Shown: in pieces, positions 1-64,000 of the stretch
How positions within the stretch are numbered: the stretch's first letter is position 1
How the letters are laid out: every line of letters starts with the position of its first letter
Virus record (IMG/VR): IMGVR_UViG_3300033463_000034
Length of the DNA: 64,000 nt
Reading direction: 5' to 3' (one strand)
DNA from: a virus
Taxonomy: Duplodnaviria; Heunggongvirae; Uroviricota; Caudoviricetes
The notes under the pieces: model-generated
What the model was told of the DNA's origin: nothing
What the model saw: the letters and a program-made list of their open reading frames with translations, nothing else
The model's database searches: none
Translations under genes and position numbers: made by a program

Positions 1-193
1 AGTAAATCATGCAGAAGTTCGAGAAATTGGTGGATATACAGAAGAAGATTTTAAAAGAGAATTTAAATTAGGAAGATTTGTTGATGGAAAAAGAGAAACT
101 TTAGCAGATTGTACTAATATAAAATGTCCTTTCAATCAAAATGGTAAATGTTGGAATAGCAATAAAGATAATGATTGCGGGCATAGATTATAA
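1..193 (+). CDS. C-terminal fragment of a hypothetical protein (Cys-rich tail CPFNQNGKCW..DCGH), 5' partial
   Basis: Open frame from the window edge in frame 2, TAA at 191-193. Confidence 0.4.
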   Translation, partial: VNHAEVREIGGYTEEDFKREFKLGRFVDGKRETLADCTNIKCPFNQNGKCWNSNKDNDCGHRL

Positions 194-210
194 GATAGGA
201 GTTGATTAAA

Positions 211-663
211 ATGAGTAAAATGTATTTAATGTGTGGATGCCCAGGAGTAGGAAAATCATATTATATTAAAACACATTTAAAAGAAGGCGAAAAGATAATT
301 TCAAGAGATGAAATTCGTTTTAGTATGCTTAAAGATGAAGATGAATATTTTTCAAAAGAAAAAGAAGTTTATAATGAATTTCTTAGAAGAATAAATGCGG
401 AAATAGCAGCTGGATCGGACTTTTATGTCGATCAAACATCTCTTAATACCGGGGCCCGCGCAAAATTATTAAATAAATTAAATAAAAAACCTGATAAATT
501 AATTGCAATTTATATTAATAAACCACTAAATATTATATTAAATCAAAATGCTCAAAGAACAGGACGCGCTTTTGTCCCTGAAGATGCAGTAATTAATATG
601 TTTAATTCAATAGAAAAACCTACAAAAAAAGAAGGTTTTGATGAAATATGGGAGATTAAATAA
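211..663 (+). CDS. P-loop polynucleotide kinase, similar to the T4 Pnk kinase domain
   Basis: RBS AGGAG 9 nt upstream of ATG 211. Walker A GCPGVGKS. ISRDEIRFSM and VDQTSLN match T4 Pnk INRDDYRQSIM and SDTNLN. Confidence 0.7.
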   Translation: MSKMYLMCGCPGVGKSYYIKTHLKEGEKIISRDEIRFSMLKDEDEYFSKEKEVYNEFLRRINAEIAAGSDFYVDQTSLNTGARAKLLNKLNKKPDKLIAIYINKPLNIILNQNAQRTGRAFVPEDAVINMFNSIEKPTKKEGFDEIWEIK

Positions 664-664
664 T

Positions 665-826
665 ATGTGGTTTTTTGAAATAAAATATGGAAATAATTGT
701 GCGCTTGGTGGACATTTTTATTCAAGAGAAGAAATGTTTGATTGGTTTGAATGTCATTTAAAATATTATACTTTTATTGATAAATTTTATGATTTACATA
801 TATGGTATAAAAAGGAGGTAGATTAA
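665..826 (+). CDS. small hypothetical protein
   Basis: ATG overlaps the kinase stop. Only 53 aa and no recognisable motif. Confidence 0.3.
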   Translation: MWFFEIKYGNNCALGGHFYSREEMFDWFECHLKYYTFIDKFYDLHIWYKKEVD

Positions 827-2851: not shown

Positions 2852-4756
2852 ATGGCTGATAATAAATTATATACAAAAGATTCAATTGAGTCATTATCTC
2901 CATTAGAGTTTACTCGTTTAAAACCGGGTGTATATGCTGGTGATACTACATATTCAACTCAATTACTTGTAGAAATAATTTCTAATGCTGTTGATGAATT
3001 TAGATTAGGTCATGGTAATGAAATAGATATTGATATTAATAAAGATATTATATCTGTAAAAGATTATGGTCAAGGTTTTTTAGTAAATGAAAAAAGAGAA
3101 GATGGTAAAACCGTTCTAGAAGCAGCTTTCAGTGTTCTTAATACTTCTGGCAAATATCGTGAAGATGGAACTTATGAAGGAACTTCATTAGGTAGTTTTG
3201 GTATCGGATCAAAAATCACTACTTTTTTATCTCACTGGTTAGAAGTTCAAACTTGGAGAGATAATAAATCTGAATTTATTAGATTTGAAGAAGGTGTATT
3301 TAAAGATAGAGTTGTAAGAGAGGATCCATTAATCCCATCTGGAACTCTTGTAAGATGGCAACCTAGTGAACAATTTTTTACTCATACAACAGTAGAAATT
3401 AATAAAATAAAAGAATTATTTAATACAATAACTTGTTTATGTCCTGGGTTAAAAATGACTTTAACTATTGATGGAGAACAAACTATTTATTATTCAGAAA
3501 ATGGTATTAATGATTTAGTTGATGAAGCTGTTAAAAATAAAGAAATTATTGTTAATAGATTTAATATGAAATATGAAGAAGGAAAAGAAAAATTAGATAT
3601 GGTATTAACTTATACATCTAATTATTCACTTACTCTTGTTCCTTATGTTAATACAGGTTTAACAGAGAAGGGTCCTCATATCACTCAAGTTAAAACTATT
3701 ATAACAAGAGAATTTAATAAATTTTTTAAAGATAAAAAATGGTTAAAAGATAAAGAAGAAAATTTAACTGGAGATGATATACAAGAGGGTATGTATATAG
3801 TATTTAATATGACAGCTCCTAATGTTGCATATGATGCTCAAGTTAAATCAACAGTAACTAAATTAGATATGAGTAATTTTAGTGCGGCAATTGCTGAACA
3901 ATTACAATATTGGCTAATTAATAATGAAAAAGAAATAAAAGTAATCTTTGATAAAGCTGCAGCCGCACGTAAAGCAAGAGAAGCAGCTAAATCTGCACGA
4001 GAAAGAGTTAGAGAAAACAATAAGAAAAAAGAAAAAGCTCTTAAATTTGATAGTAAATTAGCAGATTGTTATTCAAAAGATAGAAGTAAATGTGAAATAT
4101 ATATCACAGAGGGTGATTCAGCTTCAGGAAATTTAAAATCAGCTAGAAATAATGAATTCCAAGCAGTAATGCCTGTTCGTGGTAAAATATTAAACACACA
4201 AAAAGCAAGTTTAGATAAGATACAAAAGAATGCAGAAATTATGACAATGATAGATGCATTTGGATTATATATTGATACTAAAACTATGCAAGTGACTTAT
4301 GATAAAAATAGTCTTCGATATGGTAAAATTATAATTGAATCAGATGCCGATGTAGATGGCGCTCATATTAAGAATTTATTCTATACATTTATATGGAACT
4401 TCTGTCCTCAACTAATTGAAGATGGTTATATTTATGCTGGTGTTCCACCATTATATAAAGTAACAATAGGAAAAGAATATAAATATATTAAAAATGATGA
4501 AGAATTAGAAGAATTTAAAAAAACAGTTGGCGATAAAAAAATAACTGTTAATCGTATGAAAGGTCTTGGTGAAATGTCGGTTGATGAAACTGAAGAAACA
4601 CTAACTGATCCTAATAACAGAATTATTAAACAAATAACAGTTGAAGATATGGCTGCCGCAGATAAACTATTTAATGATTTAATGGGAACTGCTATTGTTG
4701 TTAGAAAAGATTTTATAAAAGAACATAGTAAGGAGGCTACATACAATGCAGAATAA
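2852..4756 (+). CDS. type II topoisomerase large subunit (GyrB-like ATPase plus Toprim, as in T4 gp39)
   Basis: HATPase motifs NAVDE and GLGSFGIGSK. Toprim motifs EIYITEGDSASG, PVRGKILN and IESDADVDGAHI. Confidence 0.85.
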   Translation: MADNKLYTKDSIESLSPLEFTRLKPGVYAGDTTYSTQLLVEIISNAVDEFRLGHGNEIDIDINKDIISVKDYGQGFLVNEKREDGKTVLEAAFSVLNTSGKYREDGTYEGTSLGSFGIGSKITTFLSHWLEVQTWRDNKSEFIRFEEGVFKDRVVREDPLIPSGTLVRWQPSEQFFTHTTVEINKIKELFNTITCLCPGLKMTLTIDGEQTIYYSENGINDLVDEAVKNKEIIVNRFNMKYEEGKEKLDMVLTYTSNYSLTLVPYVNTGLTEKGPHITQVKTIITREFNKFFKDKKWLKDKEENLTGDDIQEGMYIVFNMTAPNVAYDAQVKSTVTKLDMSNFSAAIAEQLQYWLINNEKEIKVIFDKAAAARKAREAAKSARERVRENNKKKEKALKFDSKLADCYSKDRSKCEIYITEGDSASGNLKSARNNEFQAVMPVRGKILNTQKASLDKIQKNAEIMTMIDAFGLYIDTKTMQVTYDKNSLRYGKIIIESDADVDGAHIKNLFYTFIWNFCPQLIEDGYIYAGVPPLYKVTIGKEYKYIKNDEELEEFKKTVGDKKITVNRMKGLGEMSVDETEETLTDPNNRIIKQITVEDMAAADKLFNDLMGTAIVVRKDFIKEHSKEATYNAE

Positions 4757-7067
4757 TGATATTTTAAATGAGTTAAGTACAAACTTTATTGAATATGCTG
4801 TTGCAGTTAACACAGATCGTGCTATTCCAGATGCGACTTGTGGTTTAAAACCAGTAGCCCGTAGAATATTATGGGGAGCTTTTGAAAAAGGTTATACATT
4901 TAGTAAACCTCATGTTAAATCAGCAAAAATTGTCGGGGATGTAATGGGTACTTATCATCCACATGGAGATTCTTCTATATATGGAGCTCTTGTTAGATTA
5001 TCTCAACCTTGGGTTATGAGATATCCACTTATAGATTGGCATGGATCTAATGGAAATATTGATGGTGATGGTCCAGCCCATATGCGTTATACAGAAGCAA
5101 GATTATCAAAACTTGCGGAAGATGGTATGTTAAAAGGAATTAAAAAAAGAAATGTAGAATTTATTCCTAATTATTCTGAAGATGCAGAAGAACCAATTAC
5201 ATTACCTGCTATATTCCCTAATTTATTATGTAATCCTAACACAGGTATAGGGGTTGCAATGGCTTGTAATTTTGCTCCACATAACTTATGTGAAGTAGCT
5301 ACAGCTATATATGATTATATTGATGGTAAAGAACCAATGTTACCAGGTCCTGATTTTCCAACAGGTGGATTAATTATTAATATGAATGATATTCCATCTA
5401 TTATGAAAACAGGACATGGTAGTGTAAAAGTTAGAGCTAAATATAAAACAGAAGGTCAGAATATAGTATTTTATGAAATACCATATGGAACTTCCACTGA
5501 AGCACTTATTGCGGAAATAGGTGAAGTAGCAGAAAACGACATTCCTGATATAATAAATATTAGAAATGAAAGTAATAAAAAAGGTTTAAGAATAGTTGTA
5601 GAGTGTGCAAAAGGAATTAATCCAGATACAATAGCTAATAAATTATTTACAAAAACTGATTTACAAAGTAGTTTTTCATATAATCAAGTTGCTTTAATAA
5701 ACAAAACTCCAACTGAAGTTAATTTAAAAGATTGTATTAAATTATACTTAGATCATAATATTGAATGTTTAATTAAAGAAACTAAATTTGATTTACAAGC
5801 TGCAGAGGCCCGTCTTGAAGTTGTAGAAGGTTTAATAAAAGCATTAGAAGATATAGATAATATAATTGCATTTATTAAAAAGTCTGAATCAAGTGCTGCC
5901 GCAAAAGATGGTTTAGTTAAAGAATATAAATTCACAGAAGCTCAAGCTAAGTCTATTGTAGCTATGAGATTAGGTAGTTTAGCTAAATTAGAAAAAATTG
6001 AATTAAATGAAGAAAAGGCTCAATTAGAACATGATATAGATGGTTATAAATATTTATTAAATAATAAAGATGCTCAAGTTTCTACTATAAGAACTAGATT
6101 ATCTGATTTAGTTAAGAAGTATGGAGATAAGAGAAGAACTGAATTAGCACAAATTGATATTCCAAAAGAAGATAAAGAAATAATTACTGTTATTCCTGAA
6201 GATGTAGTTGTTATGGTATCTCAAACAGGAGATGTTAAGCGTATTCCTAAATCAAGTTTTAGAACACAAAGAAGAAATGGTAAAGGTATCAAATCTGAAG
6301 ATGATGCAATATTAACTACTATAAAGACTAATACTATTGATAATTTATTAGTATTTACTAACAAAGGAAAAATGTATAAAATATTAGTTGATAAACTTCC
6401 TATTGGAACAAATGTTTCAAAAGGACAAAATTTAGCTAGTTTAGTGAATATGGATGCTGATGAAAAAGTTATAGCGGCATCAAGTTTAGATAGAGATACG
6501 GATGCAGAATATGTAGTGTTTATAACTAAACAAGGTTTATTTAAGAAAACTTTATTAAGTGAATATAAATCAATTAAAAAATCAACAGGTACTCAAGCTA
6601 TTAAATTAAAAGATGGAGATAGTATTGCTAATGTAGTATTTATGAAAGAAGAAGAATTTATGATATTTACTAAATTAGGTATGGCTATCAGATTTACAAC
6701 AAAAGATATTGCAGCAATAGGTAGAGTTACTAGTGGAGTTAAAGGTATTAATTTAATAGATGGCGATGAAGTAATTTGCGGATTCCCTATATTAGATGGT
6801 AAGACTGAAATTGCTATTATTGGTAAAAATGGCTATGGAAAGAAAACTAGTTTAAATGAATTTACTTGCCAAGGTAGAGGCGGAAAAGGATTAAAATTAG
6901 GCGCGGAAATAGCAGGTGCTGCAATGATAGGGGCTGAAGATAATCTTCTATTAATTGGTAAACCAAATAGCATATGTATAGATAGTAGTGAATTACCTTT
7001 ACAAGGTAGAGCTACACTTGGTGTAAAATTAGCACAAAATGAAATTAAAAATGTTGTTATTGTATAA
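4746..7067 (+). CDS. type II topoisomerase subunit A (GyrA/ParC-like, as in T4 gp52)
   Basis: AIPDATCGLKPVARRILW and YHPHGD, with a catalytic Tyr region. Overlaps the upstream subunit by 11 nt. Confidence 0.85.
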   Translation: MQNNDILNELSTNFIEYAVAVNTDRAIPDATCGLKPVARRILWGAFEKGYTFSKPHVKSAKIVGDVMGTYHPHGDSSIYGALVRLSQPWVMRYPLIDWHGSNGNIDGDGPAHMRYTEARLSKLAEDGMLKGIKKRNVEFIPNYSEDAEEPITLPAIFPNLLCNPNTGIGVAMACNFAPHNLCEVATAIYDYIDGKEPMLPGPDFPTGGLIINMNDIPSIMKTGHGSVKVRAKYKTEGQNIVFYEIPYGTSTEALIAEIGEVAENDIPDIINIRNESNKKGLRIVVECAKGINPDTIANKLFTKTDLQSSFSYNQVALINKTPTEVNLKDCIKLYLDHNIECLIKETKFDLQAAEARLEVVEGLIKALEDIDNIIAFIKKSESSAAAKDGLVKEYKFTEAQAKSIVAMRLGSLAKLEKIELNEEKAQLEHDIDGYKYLLNNKDAQVSTIRTRLSDLVKKYGDKRRTELAQIDIPKEDKEIITVIPEDVVVMVSQTGDVKRIPKSSFRTQRRNGKGIKSEDDAILTTIKTNTIDNLLVFTNKGKMYKILVDKLPIGTNVSKGQNLASLVNMDADEKVIAASSLDRDTDAEYVVFITKQGLFKKTLLSEYKSIKKSTGTQAIKLKDGDSIANVVFMKEEEFMIFTKLGMAIRFTTKDIAAIGRVTSGVKGINLIDGDEVICGFPILDGKTEIAIIGKNGYGKKTSLNEFTCQGRGGKGLKLGAEIAGAAMIGAEDNLLLIGKPNSICIDSSELPLQGRATLGVKLAQNEIKNVVIV

Positions 7068-7084
7068 CAACATTTTTTAGTTAT

Positions 7085-7133
7085 GCGGGAGAGCCATTCT
7101 CCTGGATCTATGAGGTATTGACCGGCCGCCGCA
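7085..7133. other. GC-rich intergenic island containing CCGGCCGCCGC
   Basis: gcgggagagccattctcctggatctatgaggtattgaccggccgccgcac stands out in AT-rich DNA. It holds a short hairpin (ggaga/tctcc) and an EagI-like palindrome. Confidence 0.5.
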
Positions 7134-7134
7134 C

Positions 7135-7163
7135 TTGACAATAATAAAAAATTATTATATAAT
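7135..7163 (+). promoter_or_regulatory. consensus promoter TTGACA-17-TATAAT
   Basis: TTGACA at 7135-7140 and TATAAT at 7158-7163, both perfect. Confidence 0.65.
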
Positions 7164-7194
7164 ATATATAATAAATAAAGAAGGAGAGATACAT

Positions 7195-8310
7195 ATGAAT
7201 CCAGATAAATTAGAAGAATATAAAATGCAAGAATTAGTAGATAAATTAAATTATTATACAAAAAAATATGATGAAGGTAAACCTGAAATATCTGATTTTG
7301 AATGGGATTCTATGTATTTTCAACTACAAGATTGGGAAAATAGAACTGGAATATATCTTTCAGATAGTCCTACTCAAAATATTAATTATCAAGTAGTTAA
7401 TAAACTTAATAAAGTAGAACACAATCACCCTATGTTATCTCTTGATAAAACAAAAGATATAACAGTAGCAGATTCATTTTACAATAGTCATAAGTGTATT
7501 GTAATGGCTAAAATGGATGGACTAACTTGTTCACTTCGTTATTTAGATGGTAAACTTGTATCTGCGGAAACTCGCGGAAATGGAATAATAGGTGAAGATA
7601 TACTTCATAATGCTTTACAAGTAAAAAATATTCCTAATAGAATTGATTATTATGAAGAATTAATTGTAGATGGAGAAATTATTTGTACTTATAATGATTT
7701 TAAAGCATTTGAAAATGAATATAAAAATCCTAGAAATTTTGCTTCAGGAAGTATTAGATTATTAGATAGTCAAGAAAGCGCCACTAGAAATCTTACTTTT
7801 GTTGCATGGGATGTTGTAAAAGGATTAGATTTAGAAAATCTATCTGATAAATTAAAATGGTTAGGAGATTTAAATTTTACTGTTGTTCCAAAAGGAAATA
7901 ATTTTTATACATTTCCTGTTCAAATAGAACATATTCAAAATGAATGTAATGCTTTAGGCTATCCAATTGATGGAATTGTAATTAAATATGATAATTGTAA
8001 AGAGTATGAAATTGCAGGTAAAACTGATCATCATTTTAAAGGTGGATTAGCATATAAATTTTATGATGAAGAATATGAAACTACTCTTCTAGATATAGAA
8101 TGGAGTATGGGTAGAACTGGAGTTCTTTCTCCTATTGGAGTTTTTGAGCCTATTGAAATAGATGGTACTACAATTACTAGAGCAAGTTTATCTAATATAT
8201 CAATTATGCATCAAACATTAGGGGAAAAACCTTTTAAAGGACAGAAGATTTGGGTATCAAAACGAAATATGATAATTCCAAAAATTGAAAGAGCGGAAAA
8301 GGAGGAATAA
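7195..8310 (+). CDS. ligA: NAD-dependent DNA ligase, N-terminal half (Ia, adenylation and OB domains)
   Basis: RBS AAGGAGAG upstream. KxDG motif AKMDGLTC. The OB fold ends at IIPKIERAEKEE followed by a stop. Confidence 0.8.
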   Translation: MNPDKLEEYKMQELVDKLNYYTKKYDEGKPEISDFEWDSMYFQLQDWENRTGIYLSDSPTQNINYQVVNKLNKVEHNHPMLSLDKTKDITVADSFYNSHKCIVMAKMDGLTCSLRYLDGKLVSAETRGNGIIGEDILHNALQVKNIPNRIDYYEELIVDGEIICTYNDFKAFENEYKNPRNFASGSIRLLDSQESATRNLTFVAWDVVKGLDLENLSDKLKWLGDLNFTVVPKGNNFYTFPVQIEHIQNECNALGYPIDGIVIKYDNCKEYEIAGKTDHHFKGGLAYKFYDEEYETTLLDIEWSMGRTGVLSPIGVFEPIEIDGTTITRASLSNISIMHQTLGEKPFKGQKIWVSKRNMIIPKIERAEKEE

Positions 8311-8314
8311 TATT

Positions 8315-8782
8315 ATGAATTTAAATATAGAAAAAAGAGAATATGATGAAAATGGCATATTAAAAAATAAACAATGTAATATTTGTTTTAGAATGTTACC
8401 TATTGAACAATATTATTCTAACAAAGCTCAATATGATGGACATAGTAACACATGTAAAGAATGTGAAAATGCTTCTTTATCTGTTAGATTAAAAAATTAC
8501 AAAAGAAATGCTAAAAATAGAAATCTTAATTTTAATTTAACAAAAGAAGAATTTGATAAAATAACTTCCCAACCATGTTATTATTGTGGAGATTTGGGTG
8601 CAATATCTCCTTCTGGATTTAGATATAATGGAATAGATAGAAAAGATTCATCGCAAGGATATAACTTAGATAATATAGTTCCTTGTTGCAAGATTTGTAA
8701 TTTAATGAAATTAGATATTCCAGAAAAAGATTTTTTATATCATATTCAAAAAATATATGAATTTCAGTTATGGGGGGATTAA
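8315..8782 (+). CDS. HNH homing-type endonuclease inserted between the ligase halves
   Basis: RBS AAGGAGG 10 nt upstream. HNH signature CYYCGD...NGIDRKDSSQGYNLDNIVPCCKICN. Confidence 0.75.
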   Translation: MNLNIEKREYDENGILKNKQCNICFRMLPIEQYYSNKAQYDGHSNTCKECENASLSVRLKNYKRNAKNRNLNFNLTKEEFDKITSQPCYYCGDLGAISPSGFRYNGIDRKDSSQGYNLDNIVPCCKICNLMKLDIPEKDFLYHIQKIYEFQLWGD

Positions 8783-8783
8783 A

Positions 8784-9584
8784 ATGAAACAATATTTTGA
8801 AATTCCTGAAATCTGTCCAATATGTGGCGGCAATACTGAAATTAGAAAAGATAATGATAGTGAGATGTTGTATTGTATAAATCCTCACTGCGAAGGAAAA
8901 TTAATAAATCACCTAGACCATTTTTGTGGTAAAAATGGGTTAGATATAAAGGGGCTCTCAACGGCAACTCTCGAGAAACTTATAGACTGGGGTTGGGTTT
9001 CTAATTATATTGATATATATAAATTAGAAAACTACTCAAACGAATGGAAAAACAAAGCTGGTTTTGGAGAAAAGTCAGTAGAGAGGATCTTGAGCGCCCT
9101 TGAACTAAGTAAAAATACTACATTAAATAAAGTTATTGCGGCCGCAGGTATACCTTTAATAGGTCCTGGAGTAGCAAAAATGTTAAGTGAGATTTATCAT
9201 ACTTGGATAGAGTTTCGTAATGAAAAAGATTTTGAATATATAGATGGAATCGGTCCAGAAATGAATAATTCATTATTAAATTTTAATTATACTGAAATTG
9301 AACAAGTTATTCCTTATTTAAATATAGAAAATGATAAAATAGAAAAGAAAAATAAATTAGAAAATTTAACTTTTTGTATTACTGGTAAAGTACATACAGT
9401 AAAAAATAGAGATGAATTAAAAGCAATAATAGAAAATAATGGTGGAAAAGTTGTTGGTTCAATGTCAAGCAAAGTTAATTATTTAATTAATAATGATAAT
9501 ACTTCAACTAGTGCAAAAAATATTGCCGCAAAACAAGCAGGAATTCCAATTATTACAGAGGAAGAATTGCAATTAATGATTTAA
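8784..9584 (+). CDS. ligA: NAD-dependent DNA ligase, C-terminal half (Zn finger, HhH and BRCT)
   Basis: CPICGG...C..C Zn finger at the N-terminus, HhH region GIPLIGPGVAK, BRCT-like end. Own weak RBS GGGGGGA. Confidence 0.75.
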   Translation: MKQYFEIPEICPICGGNTEIRKDNDSEMLYCINPHCEGKLINHLDHFCGKNGLDIKGLSTATLEKLIDWGWVSNYIDIYKLENYSNEWKNKAGFGEKSVERILSALELSKNTTLNKVIAAAGIPLIGPGVAKMLSEIYHTWIEFRNEKDFEYIDGIGPEMNNSLLNFNYTEIEQVIPYLNIENDKIEKKNKLENLTFCITGKVHTVKNRDELKAIIENNGGKVVGSMSSKVNYLINNDNTSTSAKNIAAKQAGIPIITEEELQLMI

Positions 9585-10218: not shown

Positions 10219-11157
10219 TTGATTAATATAAAAGATTTTATTACAATATTTTTCTTTATTACAACAATAATATTATTTATTATATTATTATGTAAAAAAT
10301 ATAAAATTAATGAAATTAATAAAAATATTGAATTAGAAAATGAAAAATTATTAAAAAATAAAGATAATATTATAAATGAAATAAAAATTTTAAATATAAC
10401 AAAAGAAGAAAAAAATAAAGATTTACAAGAGATAGAAAAAATTACAAATAATATGAATGCGGCCGCTCATAAAGCATTTTCTGAATACTGTGATTCTTTA
10501 GATTCAGAATATAAAATTACTGAACAAGAACATGATGCAGCAATTGATGGATTAAGAACTGCATATGATAATCTTCAAGATATATTAATGATGAAAATTA
10601 AAAATACTCAAAAAGAATTAGATAAAATTTCTGCAACCCGTGCTGCCGCATTAGAAACTCAATTAAAAGAACAAGAAATAAAAAATAAACAATCTTTCTA
10701 TTGTCCGCAAATTCCTGAAGATGAATTAAAAGATGTTAAAGTTTTACATGAAATAGAATATAAATTAAATAATCCAAGAATATTAAGAATGCTTATATGA
10801 CAAACATATTATCAAAAACCTATGAATCAAGTTTGTGCAAATGTATTAGGAGATGCATCCGCAGAAAAATGCGGTATATATAAAATAACAAATCAAAAAA
10901 ACGATTTATTATATATAGGTCAAGCTGTTGATATTGCTACTCGTTGAAAAAATCATGCTAAAGCAGGTTTAGGAATAGATACTCCTGCAAATAATAAATT
11001 ATATAAAGCAATTATAGAAGATGGGCTTGAAAATTTTTCTTTTGAATTATTAGAAGAATGTAATAGAGATCAACTTAATGAAAAAGAAAAATTTTATATA
11101 AAATTATATCAATCTGATCAATTTGGATATAATTCTAATTCAGGTATAAATAAGTAA
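10219..11157 (+). CDS. membrane-anchored coiled-coil protein with C-terminal GIY-YIG nuclease domain (TTG start, 2 in-frame TGA)
   Basis: N-terminal TM FITIFFFITTIILFIILL and a long K/E coiled coil. C-terminal GIYKITNQKNDLLYIGQAVDIATRW(TGA)KNH...E..FYIKLY. Confidence 0.5.
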
Positions 11158-23800: not shown

Positions 23801-24808
23801 CCATTAAATAAAAGTGCAATGATAAGTTTAATTAAAGCGGGGGCTTTTGATAAAATAGATAATAAAAATGCGAAAGAAGCAAATGTTGAACCTAGATTAT
23901 GGGTTATGACATATTATTTATCTAAAGTGTGTGATGCAAAAAAAAGATTAACTTTACAAAATTTTAATGGTTTATTACAACATAATTTAATTCCTGAAGA
24001 ATTAGATTTACAAAAAAGAGTATTTAATTTTAATAAATATTTAAAAGCAAATCAAAAAGTAGGAAAATATTATGTATTTAATCAACCTTGTGAAGATTTT
24101 TATAATAAATATTTTGATTTAGATCAGTTAGAAGTAATAAATGGTATTACATGTATTCTTCAAACAAGATGGGATAAAATATATCAAGATATAATGGGAA
24201 CAGCTAGAGATTATTTACAAGTACATCAAGATGAAATGTTAAAGAAATTTAATACAATGTTATTTAAAGAATGTTGGGATAAATATGCACAAGGAAATAT
24301 TTCTGCGTGGGAAATGGAATCTTTATGTTTTTATTATCATGAACATGAATTAGCTCATATTAATAATTTAAAATATGGATTAACAAATTTCTTTGATTTA
24401 TCTCCATCTCCAGAAATTGATACAATGTTTAAAAGAAATGGTAAAGAAATTCCTATATTTAAAACTTTTAAAATAGTTGGAACAGTTATTAATAAAAATG
24501 ATAATAAAAATAGTATAACTTTATTAACAACAAATGGTATTGTTATTGTTAAATTTACAAAAGAATATTTTGCAATGTTTAATAGACAATTAAGTGAAAT
24601 GGGAGAAGATGGAACTAAACATGTTATTGAAAAAGGTTGGTTTACAAGAGGAACTAAAGTAATGATAACAGGTTTTAGAAGAGATGATACTTTTGTAGCA
24701 AAAACTTATACACGAACAGCAACTCATCAATTATATAAAATAGAAAAAGTATTTGAAAATGGAGATATGGAATTAACTCATGAAAGAGGAAATAATAATG
24801 AAGAATAG
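20855..24808 (+). CDS. DNA polymerase III alpha-family replicative polymerase (PHP domain plus pol core plus OB), about 1317 aa; in-frame TGA at 22478
   Basis: RBS AGAGGAGGA upstream. PHP motif HSHTYYS...ITDHE. The two track ORFs are in the same frame and joined by TGA. Confidence 0.75.
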
Positions 24809-25678: not shown

Positions 25679-25757
25679 TTTATATAAGCTAAAAATAAAA
25701 TAATATAGAGGGTAATTTTAACCACTCGAAATAATTTATATACTGAGGAGGTTGACT

Positions 25758-36722: not shown

Positions 36723-36732
36723 AAAATTTTAC

Positions 36733-36775: not shown

Positions 36776-36799
36776 CCTGCCAAATTTTAAGCATAAAAA

Positions 36800-39688: not shown

Positions 39689-39691
39689 ATG

Positions 39692-42028: not shown

Positions 42029-42132
42029 ATAAACATCTCCTTTTATCTCGCGGCGGCCGGTGTTAGAATATTCACCAAGACTCATCAAATGATGAACCTG
42101 ATTTCCGCATTATCTATTATTATCTTCTTCTT

Positions 42133-49400: not shown

Positions 49401-49995
49401 TTAAATAAAAAGTATATGTAGTATTAGGAGTTAAACTACTAAATACATTACTACTTTGTCATGAACTATTATCTCTTGAATATTCAACAGTAGGTGTTGT
49501 AGTATTTAAATTTAAATATAATTGTGGATTTCCACTATCTGTTGTTTTGTTAAATATATAATTATTTGTTGAACCTCCTGTATTATGAATCTGTAATCAA
49601 AATGCTTGATTTCCTGATGGAACTATACCAACATTAAAATTGTCAGTAACATATTTATTTTGAGCATTATCTTTTCATTCCCAATAAGCTCCATTAGATG
49701 TATTTAAGAAAAAGTGAACATTTTGATTAATAACTGTAGAACCAAATCCCATATTAACTCAACAGTTATTATATCTACTATAACTATTTGATGAACCACG
49801 TCTTCCACGCATATTATTTATAAAAAATGAACCTGTAGTAGGTGCGGCAATAGAACTTGATAAAGTTATTTGAGTTTGTGCATTAGAAGCAGTAAAGGAA
49901 GTTACTGAAGGTGCATTTGGTACAAAAGATCAATAAGTCATTAATCTCATCCCAGTACTATTAGTACAAACAATATTAGTAAAAATTGCTGCCAT
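46414..49995 (-). CDS. large tail protein with fibronectin type III-like repeat and C-terminal lectin-like domain, about 1190 aa; very Trp(TGA)-rich
   Basis: RBS AGGAAG upstream of ATG (complement 49993-49995). Stop hand-indexed at 46414-46416. FN3-like segment TISATAHTYNTITVSFSA...YTIYF. Confidence 0.5.
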
Positions 49996-58970: not shown

Positions 58971-59405
58971 TTATTTTTCTTCATTTTCAGGAACTTTTAC
59001 TTCCCAAGTAATTTCTTCATTATTAGCTTTTACAGTTAATAATTGACCAATTCCTTCTAAAGCCTTTTTTCCTTGTGCTATTATAGAATTGATTACAATA
59101 CCTAATACTGCAACTGTACTTAAAGTATTCAAAGTATCACTTGCAATAAGTTGAATTCCATATACATTAGTAATCATATCATTAACAAAAGGTAACATTG
59201 TGAAAGCTATAGATAATAAAGCTGAACAAATATAGAATACTATAGCTTTTAAAATTCCTTTAAAGAAAACTTTTCAAGAAAAACTTTCTCCCTTTTTATT
59301 AATATTAAATATTACACCACAAACAGTATTAATTGTTACTAAAATTCCTAAAACAACTCCTAACCAACCTACTATTTGTAATGTAGACATTATAGCTTCA
59401 TACAT
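58971..59405 (-). CDS. holin-like membrane protein (3-4 TM segments), about 144 aa; 1 in-frame TGA
   Basis: RBS GGAGGTAAAG upstream. Hydrophobic segments LQIVGWLGVVLGILV, AIVFYICSALLSIAF and AVLGIVINSII. Sits directly downstream of the lysin. Confidence 0.5.
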
Positions 59406-59418: not shown

Positions 59419-60840
59419 CTATAATTTTTTTAAGGCATCAGCTTGATAAAATCCAGTAGTACCAGTATTATTACCAACTTGATATGGATAAGGTTTACCA
59501 TTCCAAATTTTTAATATTTGTCTTGTCCAGCCAATACCATAAGCAGTATTACAATCTCCATAACAAGAACCATTACCAGTGCCTATAATTTGAACTTTAT
59601 CTCCAACTTTTAATTCTTCTGGTTTTGGTGGTACAGGTGTTGGAGTTGGTTCTGGATCTACATAAGGACTAATAGAATCTTCAGCCATCCAACCTAAATC
59701 TCCAGTAGTATTATATGGATAAGGATGTCCCCATGCAATTCTAGTAATATTAGTTACTTTATTATGCGCAGTTTTACCAGGATATTTTCCATCTGCGGTT
59801 CCATATAATTGACCATTAATAATAACCTTATCCCCTATATTATATTTAGGAGTAGGTTGTGGTTGTGCAGGATAAATAGTTGTCCATTCATCACTTGAAG
59901 CTATCCATTGTTCATCTGCAATTCTATACCATATATAACCTGATGCTTCCGCAGTTTCATAATAATTATAATATCCAATATGAGCAAATCCTAAAACTTC
60001 TTTATCAGTTCCAGCACCTTTTCTAACTCTTAAATTAGATATTTTTACTTCTATTTGATCTTTATAAATATCTCTATCTACATTTGGAGTAATTGGTGAT
60101 TCTCCACCATCAACCCATTTTTGTACGTCATCTGGTAAATAAATAAAACATCTAAATGTATAAGCAGATCCTTGTCCCCATCTACCATTTTTATTAGATC
60201 TTGTTGTATTTCTAAATGTATAAGAATTATATCCTGATTCAGAAACATAAATCGAACCATCTGCATTAATTCTTTCTACAACAGCAACATGTCCAGCCCC
60301 ATCTTTACTAGCTAAAGAGCCTTTTTGCCATACTATAATAGCACCAACTTTTGGAGTTGATCCAGTTTTTAACCCAGCTGGGATAGCTCTTTCAGGGAAG
60401 TTTTCTGCATTACAATTTAATGTTTTATAAGTACATCCAGTTGTATTTCTTGCTTCGTTAATAATTTCATTAAAACGACCTGAAGCATATCCAACACAGT
60501 TTGCTAATACATTAGCTTCTGGATCTTTTGGTTTACCTAAAATACAAGTATTCCATCCACCTGTTCCAGCCTTTATAAAGTTTTTATTATTTTTTGGTTT
60601 AGTAGTTCTCATTGAAAACCCACTAGCTCCAATACCTTCTTGCTCTTCTTCATTAACATTTTCTATTGAAATAATATCTTCCATATCATCTTGTTCTTCT
60701 TGAGGATCTGTATTAAATAAATATTGTACATCCTCATCATCAATATCATCTCTTAAGAAGGCTTTAGCTACCATATGTTGTACTTCAATAGGAGCCATTT
60801 CAACTCTAGCTATTCTTTCTTCTGAAGTTAATTGTGCCAT
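59419..60840 (-). CDS. peptidoglycan hydrolase: CHAP amidase/peptidase domain plus two SH3-like wall-binding domains, with an acidic N-terminal extension
   Basis: CHAP Cys/His region GGWNTCILG...NCVGYASG...AGHVAVVE. SH3_5-like GDKVIINGQLYGTADGK and GDKVQIIGTGNG. Confidence 0.65.
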   Translation of the reverse strand: MAQLTSEERIARVEMAPIEVQHMVAKAFLRDDIDDEDVQYLFNTDPQEEQDDMEDIISIENVNEEEQEGIGASGFSMRTTKPKNNKNFIKAGTGGWNTCILGKPKDPEANVLANCVGYASGRFNEIINEARNTTGCTYKTLNCNAENFPERAIPAGLKTGSTPKVGAIIVWQKGSLASKDGAGHVAVVERINADGSIYVSESGYNSYTFRNTTRSNKNGRWGQGSAYTFRCFIYLPDDVQKWVDGGESPITPNVDRDIYKDQIEVKISNLRVRKGAGTDKEVLGFAHIGYYNYYETAEASGYIWYRIADEQWIASSDEWTTIYPAQPQPTPKYNIGDKVIINGQLYGTADGKYPGKTAHNKVTNITRIAWGHPYPYNTTGDLGWMAEDSISPYVDPEPTPTPVPPKPEELKVGDKVQIIGTGNGSCYGDCNTAYGIGWTRQILKIWNGKPYPYQVGNNTGTTGFYQADALKKL

Positions 60841-60841
60841 A

Positions 60842-61078
60842 TTAATTTTCCTCCTTTTCTATTATATCTGCGGAAGGAACCGCTTGTTCTTCTTGAACCT
60901 CTTCTTTAGATTCTTGAGCGGCCGCCGCATTTTGTTCTCTTTCTAATTGAAGTTGCTGATTATAAAGACTAGTAACTTCATTCATTATATCTTTCATTAC
61001 ATAATATATTACATCAATACTTAAACCCGATTGATTTAATACTTTTGTAATATTTACTCTTAAATCATTTAAAATCAT
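60842..61078 (-). CDS. hypothetical acidic protein (contains the GCGGCCGCCGC Ala4 stretch)
   Basis: 78 aa. Poly-Ala encoded as gcg gcg gcc gct. Confidence 0.4.
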   Translation of the reverse strand: MILNDLRVNITKVLNQSGLSIDVIYYVMKDIMNEVTSLYNQQLQLEREQNAAAAQESKEEVQEEQAVPSADIIEKEEN

Positions 61079-61103
61079 TTTTTACCTTCTTTCTTTTGTA
61101 TTT

Positions 61104-64000
61104 TTAAGTATTACAAATTAATCCATGTCTAATCTTATAAGCAGTGCCATTAATATTTATTGATATATCATTAGCAGCTTGATTTCCTTTTACTATTATT
61201 TGACCTATATCAGTTCCAAAATTAAAAGTATAAGTATTTAAATAAATACCTGTACCAGCTGTTAAAGTAATACTATTAGTTGTAGTTGCTCTTTGAATAA
61301 TACGTGTATTTCCATTAATTAAGATTCCTCCATTGTTATCAGATAAATCAGAACGAATTTTAATTTCACCATTACTACCATCAACATTTAAACCAGATAC
61401 TTGAGGATGTTTAGTGCTAACTCCCATTCTAAAATAATAAGTACTGTTTCCTAAACTTATTCCATCAGTACCAACATATATTCCTTGGGTATTACTTGTC
61501 CTAGAATTTTTCTTATTGTATAAAGATGAACCTGTAATAGTAAAACCACCTATTGTACCCATCCTTGAAAAAATAGCTCCATCATGTCCTACTCTAAAAG
61601 GGGCACTTGCTGAACTTCCTTGTTCTGCTCCAGCTCAAAATGCTCAATCTGTATGATCTGGTTCTGAACACATACCAACTTGACTTCCATATAATCTTCA
61701 TTCATCTATTGTATATCCACCAATTTTACCTGATCTAGCTGTTAAAGCTCCTGCTGTAGTTACTTGAAATGGATTTCCTAAAGTAGAATCATAAGCTCCT
61801 AAAGCAATTCCATCAGTACCTATATAAAAACCATTATTGGTATTATTAAATGATGATTTACTTCCTGAATAAATTGAACTATTTGAAGTATTATTTGTAC
61901 CAATATTAATTTTATTAGTTCCATCTCCAAAAGTTCCAGTTTTAGCATTTATTGTTCCAGTAATTTCTGCACTTGAAGCATATAATCCACCATTATGACT
62001 AACTTTAAATTTAGCATTTGTTTCTGAAGTACCATTTTTACTATTTGTTTCTCCAGCTCAAAATGCATACTTTGCAGTATCAGAACTCATACCTGTTTTA
62101 TTATCTACATAAATTCTTGTTGCATCAATAGTTCAACCACCTATTTTACCATTTTCAGCAGTTATTGTTCCTTTTATATTAGCATTTGCAGCAAATAAAT
62201 TACCAGCAGAATTTACCCCAAAATTATCTCCTGCTTTAAATACTATACTATTATGACTTTCATTACCAATAACAACATTATCTAAACCTGTAGTTCCTAA
62301 ATATAAATTATTATTTGTAGTATATAAAGCACTATTACTTAATGTCCAGCCACCTATTTGTCCAGCACCAGCATAAATAGTCCCATGTATTAATGCATTA
62401 TCAGCTTCTAATAAACCATTTTTACTAATTTTAACATAATTATTTGCATGTGTTGAAGTATCTTGAGTACCAATACCAACATTAGTATAAACATATCCAT
62501 CTGAAGTAGATGTATATGTTGTATACGTTTGTTCTACTCCATTTATATCTTTAAATGTTACAGTATCTGTAATCAAATGTCCATCTGAAGATGTTGTTCT
62601 TGTATGTTGTATATCTCCTTGATAAAGAACGCCTAATGCTTCAACTTCATCATCAATAGCATTATTTAATCCATCTACTTTATTTGCTGGAACTGTTACT
62701 CCATCAGCCAAAGTTAAACTTGTTGCTGTAATAGCTCCAGAGATATTTGCCTCTGTTGCATTTAAAACTCCATTATTATTTACACTAAATTTATCACTAC
62801 CAAATTTTATTTCAGGAGTAGTAAAATCAATTAACATACCACTTATTCCAGGTACATAATTACCAGATTGAATTTTTGCTGTGTTATTAGTTGGATCTAA
62901 AATAATTTGTCCAGCCCCAGCTTTACCAAATTCAGCTTTACCTGTATTTGCATCTAAAAAGATTGTTCTTTGACCATTATGATAACCAAATAATCCTTCT
63001 TCTGCATTATCTCTGCCAGATTCTTTTACTGAACCCATTAACACTCCAGTAAATTGATTAGCATTATTTTTCTTTCCTGCACCAACTTGAGGAGCTAATA
63101 TTGCACCTAATTCATCATTAAGTGTAATTTTATTCCCATCTCAATCATTAAGTGCAGCAATACCATATTTATATAAATATAAATGAACAGGAATATGAAT
63201 TGAACCAATATTTGTTAAATTAGAATCTTGTAAATTGGCATGAATTGTATTATTTATACATTCTCCATCATATTCTTCATTTGGAATAAAAAATTTTGAA
63301 TTTCCTGTCAAATCATTTTCTTTTGTTAAATATTCTTTATTTATTCAAGTAGTTCCATTATAAATACTTCCTGAAGAAGACCAATTATAAATAACTTGAT
63401 ATTGATTTTCAATAGTTGAGACATCTTCTCAATAACCATTGATTTTCCTTTTTACTTCAAGAGTAAATGGATGCATATTATCATACTGTGGACTGCGGCC
63501 ATCACTTGTATAAAGAACATATCTAAAACCAGTGCCTTCTACTAATTTTATTTGATATTCATTAATATCATAATTTGCACAAATTAAAGGTAATGTTGCA
63601 TAATATTTTTGTCCTAAATATTTAATTTCCGCTTTTATAATATTTGCATCGGCATTATTATAAGTACCATTATAAGTAAAATCTCCATTATTATCAATAT
63701 TTATTGAACTACTATTTTCAATTTCATTTGTATATTTATTTTTTAAAATAGACCATTTTAAATCTATACCAGCTATAGCATCAGATTGATATCCTTCTCA
63801 AATTTTATTTCCGCTTTTCCATAATTGAACCTTAAATCATTTTTTAGCAACTGCTATTGAATAATTTGGAGTTCCATTAATTAACATTGGATAATCTTTA
63901 AAATCTTCATCTGTTGTATTTAGTACTATTTTACAAATTACTTCAGAACCATTAGTTCCAGGTTCTCCCTCTTTTATAAAATTAAAAGTTGTTTTTGCTT
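61104..64000 (-). CDS. large tail protein with repeated G[KT]IGG[WYF]TI motifs (fibre or tail-associated); 5' end lies beyond the window
   Basis: Track ORFs 61104 and 62133 share a frame and are joined by TGA. Coding continues to the window edge. Confidence 0.5.

What the first reader, a model, noticed from the sequence alone, without database searches (positions are those of the whole stretch)
1..64000. Every gene, early and late, uses TGA=Trp, yet the lysin targets peptidoglycan
At least 25 genes need TGA read as a sense codon to give full-length conserved proteins. Examples are NrdG (TGA sits on Trp positions conserved with E. coli NrdG), RecJ-like, PolIII-alpha, RNase H, RuvC, the glycosyltransferases and all tail genes. 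That excludes code 25 (TGA=Gly) and standard code. Natural code-4 hosts (Mollicutes) have no cell wall, but this element encodes a CHAP+SH3 lysin, a holin and wall-polysaccharide-modifying enzymes. It is therefore either a fully TGA-recoded phage of a walled Firmicute-like host, or a phage of an undescribed walled code-4 lineage. Recoding is uniform across early and late genes, which differs from the late-gene-biased recoding reported for gut phages.
Basis: partly seen in the sequence, partly recalled or inferred. Interest (0 to 1): 0.8.

Follow-up and report, generated by a model that had tools for sequence, protein, structure and literature searches.

The report
Opal-recoded gut phage, known type
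This is part of a large phage from a ruminant-type gut that reads the stop codon TGA as tryptophan in about half of its genes, mostly late ones. That is a known kind of phage-specific recoding, but its close relatives carry an unusual five-armed tRNA that probably does the decoding.

Summary
The core observation holds. TGA is a sense codon here and it means tryptophan, not glycine. Reading TGA as sense raises coding density from 70% to 94%. Window TGA codons align mainly with TGG or TGA in relatives (263 of 380) and with glycine codons only 4 times.

The claims "every gene" and "uniform" are wrong. Only 31 of 61 ORFs contain TGA. TGA makes up 21% of Trp codons in the replication block, 78% in the nrdG-to-RuvC block and 68% in the late block (p = 7e-15). 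The CHAP lysin has 0 TGA and 11 TGG.

The cell-wall paradox dissolves. This is the known pattern of a recoded phage that infects a standard-code host, and it best resembles the "Agate" phages of Borges et al. Related ~105-145 kb phages include TGA-recoded, TAG-recoded and standard-code members.

The window holds no tRNA. A relative with 94.5% nucleotide identity carries a 22-tRNA array about 10 kb upstream. That array includes a 95-nt tRNA-Trp-like molecule with two anticodon-type hairpins, one UCA and one CCA. I found 68 distinct copies, all five helices covary, and I found no description of it in the literature I could search. This tRNA is the most interesting lead.

The parts
2852..9584 (+). 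Replication block free of TGA. It holds GyrB-like (2852-4756) and GyrA/ParC-like (4746-7067) topoisomerase subunits and an NAD-dependent DNA ligase in two pieces (7135-8310 and 8757-9584).
   Evidence: Pfam hits. Across these ORFs there are 0 TGA and 20 TGG. They can be translated with the standard code.
8286..8813 (+). A 528-bp insertion that splits the ligase gene. It carries a Cys-rich 165-aa ORF (8285-8782) that I take to be an HNH-type homing endonuclease.
   Evidence: Relatives L001 and L002 have one intact ligase ORF of 638-640 aa. The blastn alignment breaks at window 8285 and resumes at 8814. Rfam finds no group I intron. The endonuclease assignment comes from reading the sequence; Pfam gave no hit for it.
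10219..11157 (+). GIY-YIG endonuclease ORF inside the early block, with 2 TGA and 0 TGG.
   Evidence: Pfam GIY-YIG; codon counts. In relatives the two TGA positions align with TGG 37 times and TGA 7 times out of 49.
20855..24808 (+). DNA polymerase III alpha subunit, with 1 TGA (codon 541) against 17 TGG.
   Evidence: Pfam PHP, DNA_pol3_alpha, finger and HHH_6 domains; codon counts. It shows that even replication needs some TGA decoding.
25752..28010 (+). Anaerobic ribonucleotide reductase NrdD, with 1 TGA (codon 625) and 2 TGG.
   Evidence: Pfam NRDD at 3e-149; codon counts.
27988..28500 (+). NrdG activase, with 5 TGA and 0 TGG.
   Evidence: ORF listed. Four of the 5 TGA columns are W in at least 99 of 120 homologues. 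The first TGA aligns with W of PflA.
28437..29006 (+). ORF of unknown family with 5 TGA and 0 TGG. It may be a mobile endonuclease.
   Evidence: Codon counts. No Pfam or PHROG match. The function is a guess.
32857..36722 (+). Strongly recoded accessory block: Stealth-family phosphotransferase (32857-33810), GT2 (34302-35045), GT4 (35045-36145) and RuvC (36216-36722).
   Evidence: Pfam. The four ORFs hold 15 TGA and 3 TGG.
36836..42088 (-). Two large tail or baseplate proteins. 36836-39688 has 15 TGA and 0 TGG; 39692-42088 has 8 TGA and 5 TGG.
   Evidence: PHROG tail-protein and unknown-function hits; codon counts. In relatives these TGA positions align mostly with TGG or TGA.
46414..49995 (-). 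Fibre-like protein containing FN3 domains, with 23 TGA and 3 TGG. It is the most recoded gene in the window.
   Evidence: Pfam fn3; codon counts.
58971..59405 (-). Membrane protein just downstream of the lysin, holin-like, with 1 TGA (codon 44) and 2 TGG.
   Evidence: Hydrophobic segments in the sequence. A homologue sits next to the lysin homologue in L074. There is no family match, so the function is inferred.
59419..60840 (-). CHAP-domain endolysin, with 0 TGA and 11 TGG. Its GC content is 0.327 against 0.268 for the window.
   Evidence: Pfam CHAP at 1e-13. SH3_3 reaches only E = 0.41. Counts and GC. The chance of 0 TGA in 11 Trp codons at the late-block rate is 3.6e-6.
61104..64000 (-). 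C-terminal 927+ residues of a 1634-aa tail protein immediately upstream of the lysis genes. The gene starts beyond the window end. It has 13 TGA and 7 TGG over its full length.
   Evidence: L007 is 100% identical to window 60134-64000 and holds the whole gene.
36700..36840 (.). Point where the + strand and - strand gene blocks converge and the GC skew changes sign.
   Evidence: Composition profile; ORF map.

Best explanation
The window is about half of a ~130-140 kb, 27% GC, virulent tailed phage from a herbivore or ruminant gut. The phage has reassigned the opal codon TGA to tryptophan in part of its genome.

The host is most likely a walled, low-GC Firmicute (Bacilli-type) that uses the standard code. 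Genes needed first, such as the topoisomerase, ligase, DnaB and AAA_24 ATPase genes, contain no TGA, so the unmodified host machinery can translate them. Accessory, structural and most lysis-cassette genes are full of TGA. They give full-length protein only once a phage-encoded opal-decoding tRNA is present, so recoding acts as a timing or safety device.

The decoding agent is inferred to be a phage tRNA-Trp derivative with anticodon UCA. It lies in a large tRNA array about 10 kb upstream of the window start. In all close relatives examined this tRNA has a fifth arm: next to the UCA anticodon arm it keeps a copy of the normal tRNA-Trp anticodon hairpin with loop CUCCAAA.

Shown: TGA is sense, it means Trp, its use is partial and late-biased, the lysin is a CHAP enzyme, and relatives use other codes and carry the tRNA.

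Inferred: the window's own genome carries the tRNA, the host uses the standard code, recoding controls timing, and the CCA arm plays a role.
For: - Specific gain in coding density: 70% to 94% with TGA as sense, against 74% with TAG as sense.
- Window TGA positions align with TGG 135, TGA 128, Phe/Tyr 55 and Gly 4 of 380 in relatives, the same substitution profile as window TGG.
- NrdG Trp columns support Trp.
- Only 31 of 61 ORFs contain TGA. The TGA share of Trp codons is 0.21, 0.78 and 0.68 in the three blocks, p = 7e-15.
- The Borges et al. preprint reports that 26-71% of genes are recoded in phages of standard-code hosts, against about 90% in phages matched to their host's code.
- The lysin carries a CHAP domain.
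- The same family contains TGA-recoded loci (L059-L063, L066), TAG-recoded loci (L020, L022-L025) and a standard-code locus (L064), and tRNA(CUA) or tRNA(UCA) occurs in their tRNA arrays.
- L069, from a 133.7 kb scaffold with 94.5% nucleotide identity to window 1-6111, has 22 tRNAs including tRNA(UCA) at 16343-16437 and tRNA-Trp(CCA) at 16660-16733.
- The five-helix fold shows compensatory changes in every helix, and 0 of 500 shuffles reach the observed score.
- There are 68 distinct copies.
- Rfam scores it as a tRNA at 58 bits with the UCA hairpin as the anticodon arm.
- Its two halves match annotated tRNA-Trp genes.
- Lysin homologues lie in standard-code phage regions binned with gut Bacilli or "Mollicutes" MAGs.
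Against: - The window has no tRNA, and I could not recover the tRNA region of the identical genome. The nearest is 94.5% identical.
- One TGA-recoded relative (IMGVR_UViG_3300028591_000112, L056) showed no tRNA(UCA) in the 10 kb sampled.
- Several replication genes contain 1-2 TGA (PolIII-alpha, RecJ-like, SF1 helicase, NrdD), so the split between early standard-code genes and late recoded genes is not clean.
- The lysin has no TGA, which does not fit the idea that recoding directly gates lysis.
- The host is not identified. The MAG labels may reflect mis-binning; two hits sit in Methanobrevibacter bins.
- No expression, proteomic or aminoacylation data exist.
Confidence: 0.82

Rival explanations
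1. The phage infects a host that itself reads TGA as Trp. That host would be a Mollicutes-type or an undescribed walled lineage, and the phage simply shares its code.
For: The GC content is low at 27%. Lysin relatives occur in MAGs labelled "uncultured Mollicutes bacterium" and "Bacilli bacterium". Some replication genes also carry TGA.
Against: - Half of the ORFs avoid TGA, including a lysin with 11 TGG, and use is strongly heterogeneous. Phages matched to their host's code recode about 90% of genes.
- Sister phages use TAG recoding or the standard code.
- Relatives encode their own tRNA(UCA) beside tRNA-Trp(CCA).
- The MAG regions with lysin homologues have no in-frame TGA.
- The CHAP lysin implies peptidoglycan.
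- The Codetta survey found no walled UGA=Trp lineage and reported UGA as stop in RF39-order genomes.
Confidence: 0.08
2. TGA is decoded as selenocysteine, serine or another residue. The reasons to consider this are that the tRNA(UCA) is called tRNA-SeC by ARAGORN and has a long extra arm like class II tRNAs.
For: ARAGORN labels 61 of the 63 copies it called as SeC (tca). The extra arm sits where the variable arm of Ser, Leu or Sec tRNAs sits. The discriminator is G73, which from memory also occurs in E. coli tRNA-Ser.
Against: - TGA positions align with Trp and aromatic residues. Ser is 5, Cys 2 and Gly 4 of 380.
- There are about 127 TGA codons in 31 ORFs, far too many for SECIS-dependent insertion.
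- The tRNA has a 7-bp acceptor stem, a 5-bp T stem and a 4-bp D stem. From my knowledge of bacterial tRNA-Sec, that molecule has 8/5 stems and a 6-bp D stem.
- Rfam's best family is the general tRNA model.
- Both halves match tRNA-Trp genes.
Confidence: 0.04
3. TGA=Gly (code 25), or the in-frame TGAs are assembly errors or pseudogenes.
For: None beyond the bare presence of in-frame TGA.
Against: Gly codons align with window TGA in only 4 of 380 cases. Independent assemblies from JGI, ENA and Logan are 100% identical over window 1-3447, 57831-61575 and 60134-64000, and a fourth is 99.98% identical over 56567-62793. TGA positions are conserved as TGA or TGG across relatives.
Confidence: 0.01

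Closest known systems
"Agate" clade of alternatively coded gut phages (Borges et al., bioRxiv 10.1101/2021.08.26.457843; published as Nat Microbiol 2022, from memory)
   Same: - TGA read as Trp, with genomes of ~127-154 kb; the paper's named examples come from cattle, pig and giant tortoise samples.
- GC skew pattern indicating bidirectional replication.
- A clade that mixes codes 4, 15 and 11.
- A largely standard-code replication module.
- Heavy TGA use in a homing endonuclease, in the tail protein just upstream of the lysis cassette, and in a membrane protein of that cassette (compared).
   Different: Membership was not tested, because the clade is defined by terminase phylogeny and no terminase lies in the window. 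Here several replication genes carry 1-2 TGA and the lysin carries none. The paper detected TGA suppressor tRNAs in only 35% of code-4 genomes and does not describe a five-armed tRNA in the text I read.
TGA- or TAG-recoded crAss-like and Lak phages
   Same: They also show phage-specific stop-codon reassignment in a standard-code host, late-gene bias and phage-encoded suppressor tRNAs.
   Different: Those phages infect Bacteroidota and are unrelated in gene content. The phage here has a CHAP lysin and a Firmicute-like gene set.
tRNA-Trp(UCA) of Mycoplasma and Spiroplasma, and laboratory opal-suppressor derivatives of tRNA-Trp
   Same: A tRNA-Trp body with anticodon UCA reads UGA as Trp. The features G73, A1-U72 and the T arm are Trp-like (the identity rules are from memory of the B. 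subtilis and E. coli literature).
   Different: Those are ordinary four-armed tRNAs of 74-76 nt. The phage molecule is 95-98 nt and keeps a second hairpin with the wild-type CCA anticodon loop.
Class II tRNAs and allo-tRNAs (long variable arm; Mukai et al. 2017, from memory)
   Same: An extra helix lies between the anticodon arm and the T arm. Tools mislabel such tRNAs as SeC.
   Different: From my knowledge, variable arms normally have loops of 3-5 nt, and their length rather than their sequence serves as an identity mark for SerRS, LeuRS or TyrRS. Here the extra arm has a 7-nt loop, CUCCAAA in every copy (fixed by the search pattern in most, but also present in the six copies found independently of it), that copies the anticodon loop of the cognate tRNA-Trp.

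Membership tests
Stop-codon-recoded phage, TGA to Trp (code 4), in a standard-code host | In-frame TGA in conserved genes, with a coding-density gain specific to TGA | tested here: met
   Coverage is 70% under table 11, 94% with TGA as sense and 74% with TAG as sense. 31 of 61 ORFs contain TGA.
Stop-codon-recoded phage, TGA to Trp (code 4), in a standard-code host | TGA positions correspond to Trp in homologues | tested here: met
   TGG 135, TGA 128, Phe/Tyr 55 and Gly 4 of 380. NrdG columns. PflA alignment.
Stop-codon-recoded phage, TGA to Trp (code 4), in a standard-code host | Only part of the genes are recoded, with bias to late, structural and lysis modules | tested here: met
   51% of ORFs contain TGA. 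The TGA share of Trp codons is 0.21 in the replication block against 0.68-0.78 elsewhere, p = 7e-15.
Stop-codon-recoded phage, TGA to Trp (code 4), in a standard-code host | Phage-encoded UGA-decoding tRNA | tested here: inconclusive
   The window has none. It is present in a 94.5%-identical relative (L069) and in other relatives. The identical genome's tRNA region was not recovered.
Stop-codon-recoded phage, TGA to Trp (code 4), in a standard-code host | The host uses TGA as stop | not testable with these tools
   The host is not identified.
Agate clade (Borges et al.) | Placement in the clade by large-terminase phylogeny | not tested
   No terminase lies in the window and no Agate reference sequences were available.
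Agate clade (Borges et al.) | Genome of ~127-154 kb from an animal gut, with GC skew indicating bidirectional replication | tested here: met
   Contigs of close relatives are 133.7 and 141.6 kb. The skew sign change lies at about 36.7 kb. MAG record titles name sheep, goat and rabbit samples and one human-gut MAG (UMGS1109).
Agate clade (Borges et al.) | Close relatives use codes 11, 15 and 4 | tested here: met
   Coverage profiles and suppressor anticodons of L020-L025 and L059-L066.
Phage of a natural code-4 host (Mycoplasma or Spiroplasma type) | Nearly all genes use TGA, and no peptidoglycan-degrading lysin is needed | tested here: not met
   30 of 61 ORFs have no TGA. A CHAP lysin is present.
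Code 25 (TGA = Gly) phage of Absconditabacteria or Gracilibacteria | TGA aligns with Gly | tested here: not met
   4 of 380.
Bacterial tRNA-Sec (for the tRNA that ARAGORN calls SeC) | 8-bp acceptor stem plus 5-bp T stem, a 6-bp D stem, and a match to the Rfam tRNA-Sec model | tested here: not met
   The tRNA has 7/5 stems and a 4-bp D stem. Its best Rfam family is RF00005 tRNA. The defining features themselves are from my knowledge.
tRNA-Trp (for the five-armed tRNA) | Trp-type acceptor end (A1-U72, G73) and body similar to tRNA-Trp genes | tested here: met
   Alignment with neighbouring tRNA-Trp(CCA) genes. Positions 50-96 and 6-40 match annotated tRNA-Trp genes in GenBank phages.
tRNA-Trp (for the five-armed tRNA) | Charged by TrpRS and decodes UGA | not testable with these tools
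   This needs biochemistry.

The most novel reading that the evidence does not exclude
The opal reassignment in this phage lineage is carried out by a class of tRNA that has not been described. It is a tRNA-Trp in which the anticodon stem-loop has been duplicated in tandem. One copy has mutated to UCA and reads UGA on the ribosome. The other copy keeps the CCA loop and sits in the variable-arm position, where it may preserve recognition by the host TrpRS or serve another identity or protection role. Such a molecule would also explain why Borges et al. detected suppressor tRNAs in only about a third of code-4 phages.
Probability: 0.4. Interest if true: 0.75.

Novelty: new member of a known kind. 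Interest (0 to 1): 0.45.

Why it matters
For the window itself, the result is mainly a correction. The apparent paradox of a mycoplasma code combined with a peptidoglycan lysin is the established signature of phage-specific opal recoding. The genome must be annotated with table 4, because ENA-type table-11 gene calls truncate about half of its proteins.

The scientifically useful by-product is the five-armed tRNA-Trp(UCA/CCA). It gives a concrete, testable molecule for how a phage converts a standard-code cell to TGA=Trp. It may also be of interest for engineering opal suppressors that remain good TrpRS substrates.

The TGA-free lysin sitting next to heavily recoded neighbours is also a useful data point for testing the idea that recoding gates lysis.

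Tried and rejected
- Megablast of window 46000-64000 against GenBank phages gave no match. tblastn with the topoisomerase A subunit gave only hits of about 40% identity, probably bacterial gyrA-like or contaminant records, so no close GenBank relative exists.
- The search for related loci with the recoded tail protein failed, probably because of its TGA codons and divergence. TGA-free queries worked.
- I tried to reach the rest of the window's own genome by exact-protein look-ups. Large contigs were indexed but not returned for the right-hand end. Only 2.2 kb beyond the window end (L007) and 1.2 kb before its start (L003) were recovered at 100% identity.
- A metagenome scan for the tRNA motif found 78 contigs, but none is the window's own genome; the best is about 84% identical.
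- PDB searches gave only one informative Trp column for NrdG, and an aromatic residue (Tyr) for RuvC.
- Rfam at gathering thresholds found nothing in the window. There is no group I intron around the endonuclease ORFs.
- ARAGORN's tmRNA calls in relatives were not confirmed by Rfam in L069.
- The SH3 claim for the lysin is not supported (E = 0.41).
- Searching papers for the sample accessions found nothing.
- Three literature searches for a tRNA with two anticodon arms or a phage opal suppressor with an extra arm found nothing relevant. This is absence within the searchable library only.
- The selenocysteine, serine and glycine readings of TGA were considered and rejected on the alignment evidence.


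Full report
**What is in the window**

The 64-kb window has 27% GC and no tRNA genes. Genes run on the + strand up to about 36.7 kb and on the - strand after that. The GC skew changes sign at the same point.

With TGA read as sense, a simple non-overlapping ORF set covers 94% of the sequence in 61 ORFs with a mean length of 328 aa. Table 11 gives 70% coverage and TAG-as-sense gives 74%.

Pfam identifies these genes on the + strand:
- Replication: RNase H, GyrB-like and GyrA-like topoisomerase subunits, an NAD-dependent ligase, a GIY-YIG endonuclease, an AAA_24 ATPase, DnaB, a primase-like protein (weak Toprim hit, E = 0.006, below Pfam's cutoff), a DHH/RecJ-like protein, an SF1 helicase and PolIII-alpha.
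- Nucleotide and protein metabolism: guanylate kinase, NrdD, peptide deformylase and dUTPase.
- Accessory genes: an SPFH/flotillin protein, a Stealth-family enzyme, GT2, GT4 and RuvC.

NrdG (27988-28500) was missed by my greedy ORF set and recovered by hand.

The - strand carries large tail, baseplate and fibre proteins, another GT2, a membrane protein, a CHAP endolysin and a large tail protein. That tail protein runs off the window. Its full length is 1634 aa in L007, which is 100% identical to the window end.

**Checking the observation**

TGA is a sense codon. The ORF set contains 124-127 in-frame TGA codons, and every complete ORF ends in TAA (47) or TAG (13).

I aligned the window proteins to 10-20 kb loci from related phages fetched from IMG/VR, ENA, JGI and Logan, and read the subject codon opposite each window TGA. 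The result was TGG 135, TGA 128, Phe/Tyr 55, Gly 4, Ser 5 and Cys 2 out of 380. Window TGG codons show the same profile.

In NrdG, four of the five TGA columns are W in 99-120 of 120 homologues. One aligns with the Trp of E. coli pyruvate formate-lyase activase. So TGA means Trp, and code 25 and the standard code are excluded.

- Only 31 of 61 ORFs contain TGA. 22 Trp-containing ORFs use only TGG.
- TGA makes up 21% of Trp codons in the replication block (202-28010), 78% in the nrdG-to-RuvC block and 68% in the late block.
- Heterogeneity among genes with at least 4 Trp codons gives chi-square 121 on 24 degrees of freedom, p = 7e-15.
- The topoisomerase, ligase, DnaB and AAA_24 genes are TGA-free. 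PolIII-alpha has 1 TGA against 17 TGG.
- The most recoded genes are tail or fibre proteins (15/0 and 23/3 TGA/TGG), NrdG (5/0), an unknown ORF at 28437-29006 (5/0), Stealth (5/1) and a small membrane ORF at 1557-1769 (5/0).
- The lysin has 0 TGA and 11 TGG. The chance of this at the late-block rate is 3.6e-6. Its GC content is also higher, 0.327 against 0.268.
- The CHAP domain is solid. The SH3 domain is not (E = 0.41).

**Where it comes from and what its relatives look like**

Exact-protein look-ups place identical or near-identical sequence in several sources. These are JGI samples 3300028887 and 3300031993, Logan runs SRR9008933 and SRR10393135, and ENA assemblies that include contigs of 141.6 kb and 133.7 kb.

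IMG/VR holds a family of ~105-145 kb contigs whose topoisomerase A subunit is 56-88% identical to the window's.

Within this family:
- Structural-region loci L059-L063 and L066 gain coverage only with TGA as sense.
- L020 and L022-L025 gain coverage only with TAG as sense.
- L064 needs neither.

The tRNA arrays match this pattern. More distant relatives carry tRNA(CUA), closer ones carry tRNA(UCA), and L035 and L091 carry both.

Several published descriptions of the "Agate" clade match the window. The paper reports ~127-154 kb genomes, with named examples from cattle, pig and giant tortoise samples. It also reports a mix of codes 4, 15 and 11, GC skew indicating bidirectional replication, mostly standard-code replication genes and accumulation of TGA in structural and lysis modules. 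Three gene families are especially TGA-rich there: a homing endonuclease, the tail protein upstream of the lysis cassette and a membrane protein in that cassette (Borges et al. preprint). In the window, the GIY-YIG ORF (2/0), the 1634-aa tail protein (13/7) and the membrane protein (1/2) sit in the corresponding places.

I could not test clade membership, because it rests on terminase phylogeny.

**Host and the wall paradox**

The paradox disappears once the recoding is seen as phage-specific.
- The preprint reports that phages matched to a recoded host have about 90% of genes recoded, while those in standard-code hosts have 26-71%. Here the figure is 51%.
- Lysin relatives (63-71% identity) were found in contigs binned into MAGs labelled Bacilli (sheep colon), "uncultured Mollicutes" (human gut) and Methanobrevibacter (goat ileum). 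A weak match to the lysin's C-terminal region (44% identity over residues 412-473; its function is not established) occurs in a rabbit-gut Bacilli MAG.
- The flanking genes there are phage-like and contain no in-frame TGA in most ORFs.
- These labels are weak host hints and may reflect mis-binning.
- The Codetta survey of more than 250,000 genomes found UGA=Trp only in Mycoplasmatales, Entomoplasmatales and insect endosymbionts. It concluded that the few NCBI-labelled Mycoplasmatales/Entomoplasmatales species it examined that GTDB assigns to order RF39 have RF2 and use UGA as stop (PMC8629427).

I therefore put the code-4-host rival at about 8%.

**The likely decoder**

The window has no tRNA. 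The region about 5-14 kb upstream of its start holds a large tRNA array in relatives.

L069 comes from a 133.7 kb scaffold and is 94.5% identical to window 1-6111. It has 22 tRNAs, including a 95-nt gene that ARAGORN calls tRNA-SeC(tca) at 16343-16437 and a normal tRNA-Trp(CCA) at 16660-16733. The same pair occurs in L034, L035, L039, L070 and L071.

The molecule folds with these features:
- a normal 7-bp acceptor stem with G73 and an encoded CCA end;
- a 4-bp D stem and a 5-bp T stem;
- two hairpins that each have a 7-nt anticodon-type loop, the first CUUCAAA (UCA) and the second CUCCAAA (CCA).

MAFFT aligns the second hairpin with the anticodon arm of the neighbouring ordinary tRNA-Trp, and the UCA hairpin appears as a ~22-nt insertion.

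A motif scan found the tRNA in 19 IMG/VR contigs and 78 metagenome contigs, giving 68 distinct full-length sequences. On 16 diverse copies, all five helices show compensatory changes. 99% of cells are paired, 14 pairs change on both sides, and 0 of 500 shuffles reach the observed score. The 68 copies have 16 distinct UCA stems and 30 distinct CCA stems. The inner two base pairs and both loops were fixed by the search pattern, so their invariance in that set carries no information.

Rfam scores the tRNA as an ordinary tRNA at 58 bits. It places the UCA hairpin as the anticodon arm and the CCA hairpin in the variable-arm insertion.

No GenBank phage record contains the whole molecule. Its 3' half and its 5' part each match annotated tRNA-Trp genes. 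It is therefore best described as a tRNA-Trp with a tandemly duplicated anticodon arm.

It is not tRNA-Sec. It has 7/5 stems and a short D stem, and TGA positions are Trp.

The tRNA was present in 3 of the 4 TGA-recoded relatives for which I had both regions, and absent from the tRNA arrays of about 10 relatives carrying tRNA(CUA).

That it decodes UGA as Trp, and that the retained CCA arm helps TrpRS recognition, are inferences. Three literature searches found no description of such a tRNA. The preprint notes that only 35% of code-4 phages had a detectable suppressor and suspects non-canonical tRNAs.

**Mechanism proposed**

1. Shown: early core replication genes are TGA-free and can be translated by the host.
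2. Inferred: the phage tRNA array, including tRNA(UCA), is expressed.
3. Shown as a requirement: accessory, structural and most lysis-cassette genes need UGA decoding to give full-length products.
4. Inferred: this couples late protein synthesis to accumulation of the tRNA.

Caveats: several replication genes need at least one UGA read-through. The lysin needs none, so if lysis is gated at all, it is gated through its neighbours (the tail protein and the membrane protein) rather than through the lysin.

**Verdict**

The element is a new member of a known kind of phage-specific opal-to-Trp recoding and is Agate-like. The unusual tRNA in its relatives is the part that deserves follow-up.

Noticed in passing
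L069:16343-16437; also L070:13439-13534, L071:8016-8110, L034:15261-15356, L035:15600-15695, L039:11267-11362 (about 10 kb upstream of the window start in relatives): A 95-98-nt tRNA-Trp-like gene with two anticodon-type hairpins (loops CUUCAAA and CUCCAAA). ARAGORN calls it tRNA-SeC. It usually lies near a normal tRNA-Trp(CCA). There are 68 distinct copies in public data, all five helices covary, no GenBank phage has it, and I found no paper describing it.
   Followed up: yes
window 8286-8813 (ORF 8285-8782), between ligase pieces 7135-8310 and 8757-9584: The NAD-dependent DNA ligase is one 638-640-aa gene in relatives L001 and L002. Here a 528-bp insertion with a Cys-rich, endonuclease-like ORF splits it. 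Rfam detects no group I intron, so the ligase may work as two polypeptides (a gene in pieces).
   Followed up: partly
window 59419-60840: The CHAP lysin uses TGG for all 11 Trp codons and has higher GC (0.327) than its surroundings, while its neighbours are heavily recoded. Homologues of 63-71% identity lie in standard-code phage regions. This suggests recent acquisition or selection for code-independent expression.
   Followed up: partly
L069:19216-19631, L071:10889-11304, L034:18316-18689, L035:19800-20218: ARAGORN predicts a tmRNA inside the phage tRNA array of relatives. Rfam at gathering threshold did not confirm one in L069, so it may be a false call or a very divergent tmRNA.
   Followed up: partly
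L035 and L091 (IMGVR_UViG_3300028832_000114 and 3300033463_006083): These relatives carry both a tRNA(UCA) and a tRNA(CUA) in one array. They may be intermediates between codes or users of two reassignments.
   Followed up: no
L073-L076: Phage-like contigs with lysin homologues are binned into MAGs labelled Bacilli, Mollicutes and even Methanobrevibacter. The 129-kb and 181-kb contigs may be whole phage genomes sitting in bacterial bins.
   Followed up: no
window 29040-29498, 31287-32738, 32857-36145, 42677-43783: The phage carries several auxiliary genes: a peptide deformylase, an SPFH/flotillin protein, a Stealth-family phosphotransferase and three glycosyltransferases, one of them inside the structural block. 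Their targets (host envelope, virion or DNA) are unknown.
   Followed up: no
L001/L002/L070 versus L003/L069 gene tables: Public gene calls differ by pipeline. Some ENA contigs were called with table 11, giving RNase H of 136 aa and missing the 70-aa ORF. JGI and other contigs were called with TGA as sense, giving 182 aa. Protein databases therefore hold both truncated and full versions.
   Followed up: no
window 1557-1769: A 70-aa hydrophobic ORF in the early block has 5 TGA and 0 TGG. These positions are conserved as TGA or TGG in relatives (27 TGA and 15 TGG of 45). It is a strongly recoded gene among TGA-free neighbours.
   Followed up: partly
window 36216-36722 and 58681-58866: In RuvC and in a 61-aa ORF, the last TGA lies 1-3 codons before the TAA stop. 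Whether these are sense codons or leftover stops cannot be decided from sequence.
   Followed up: no
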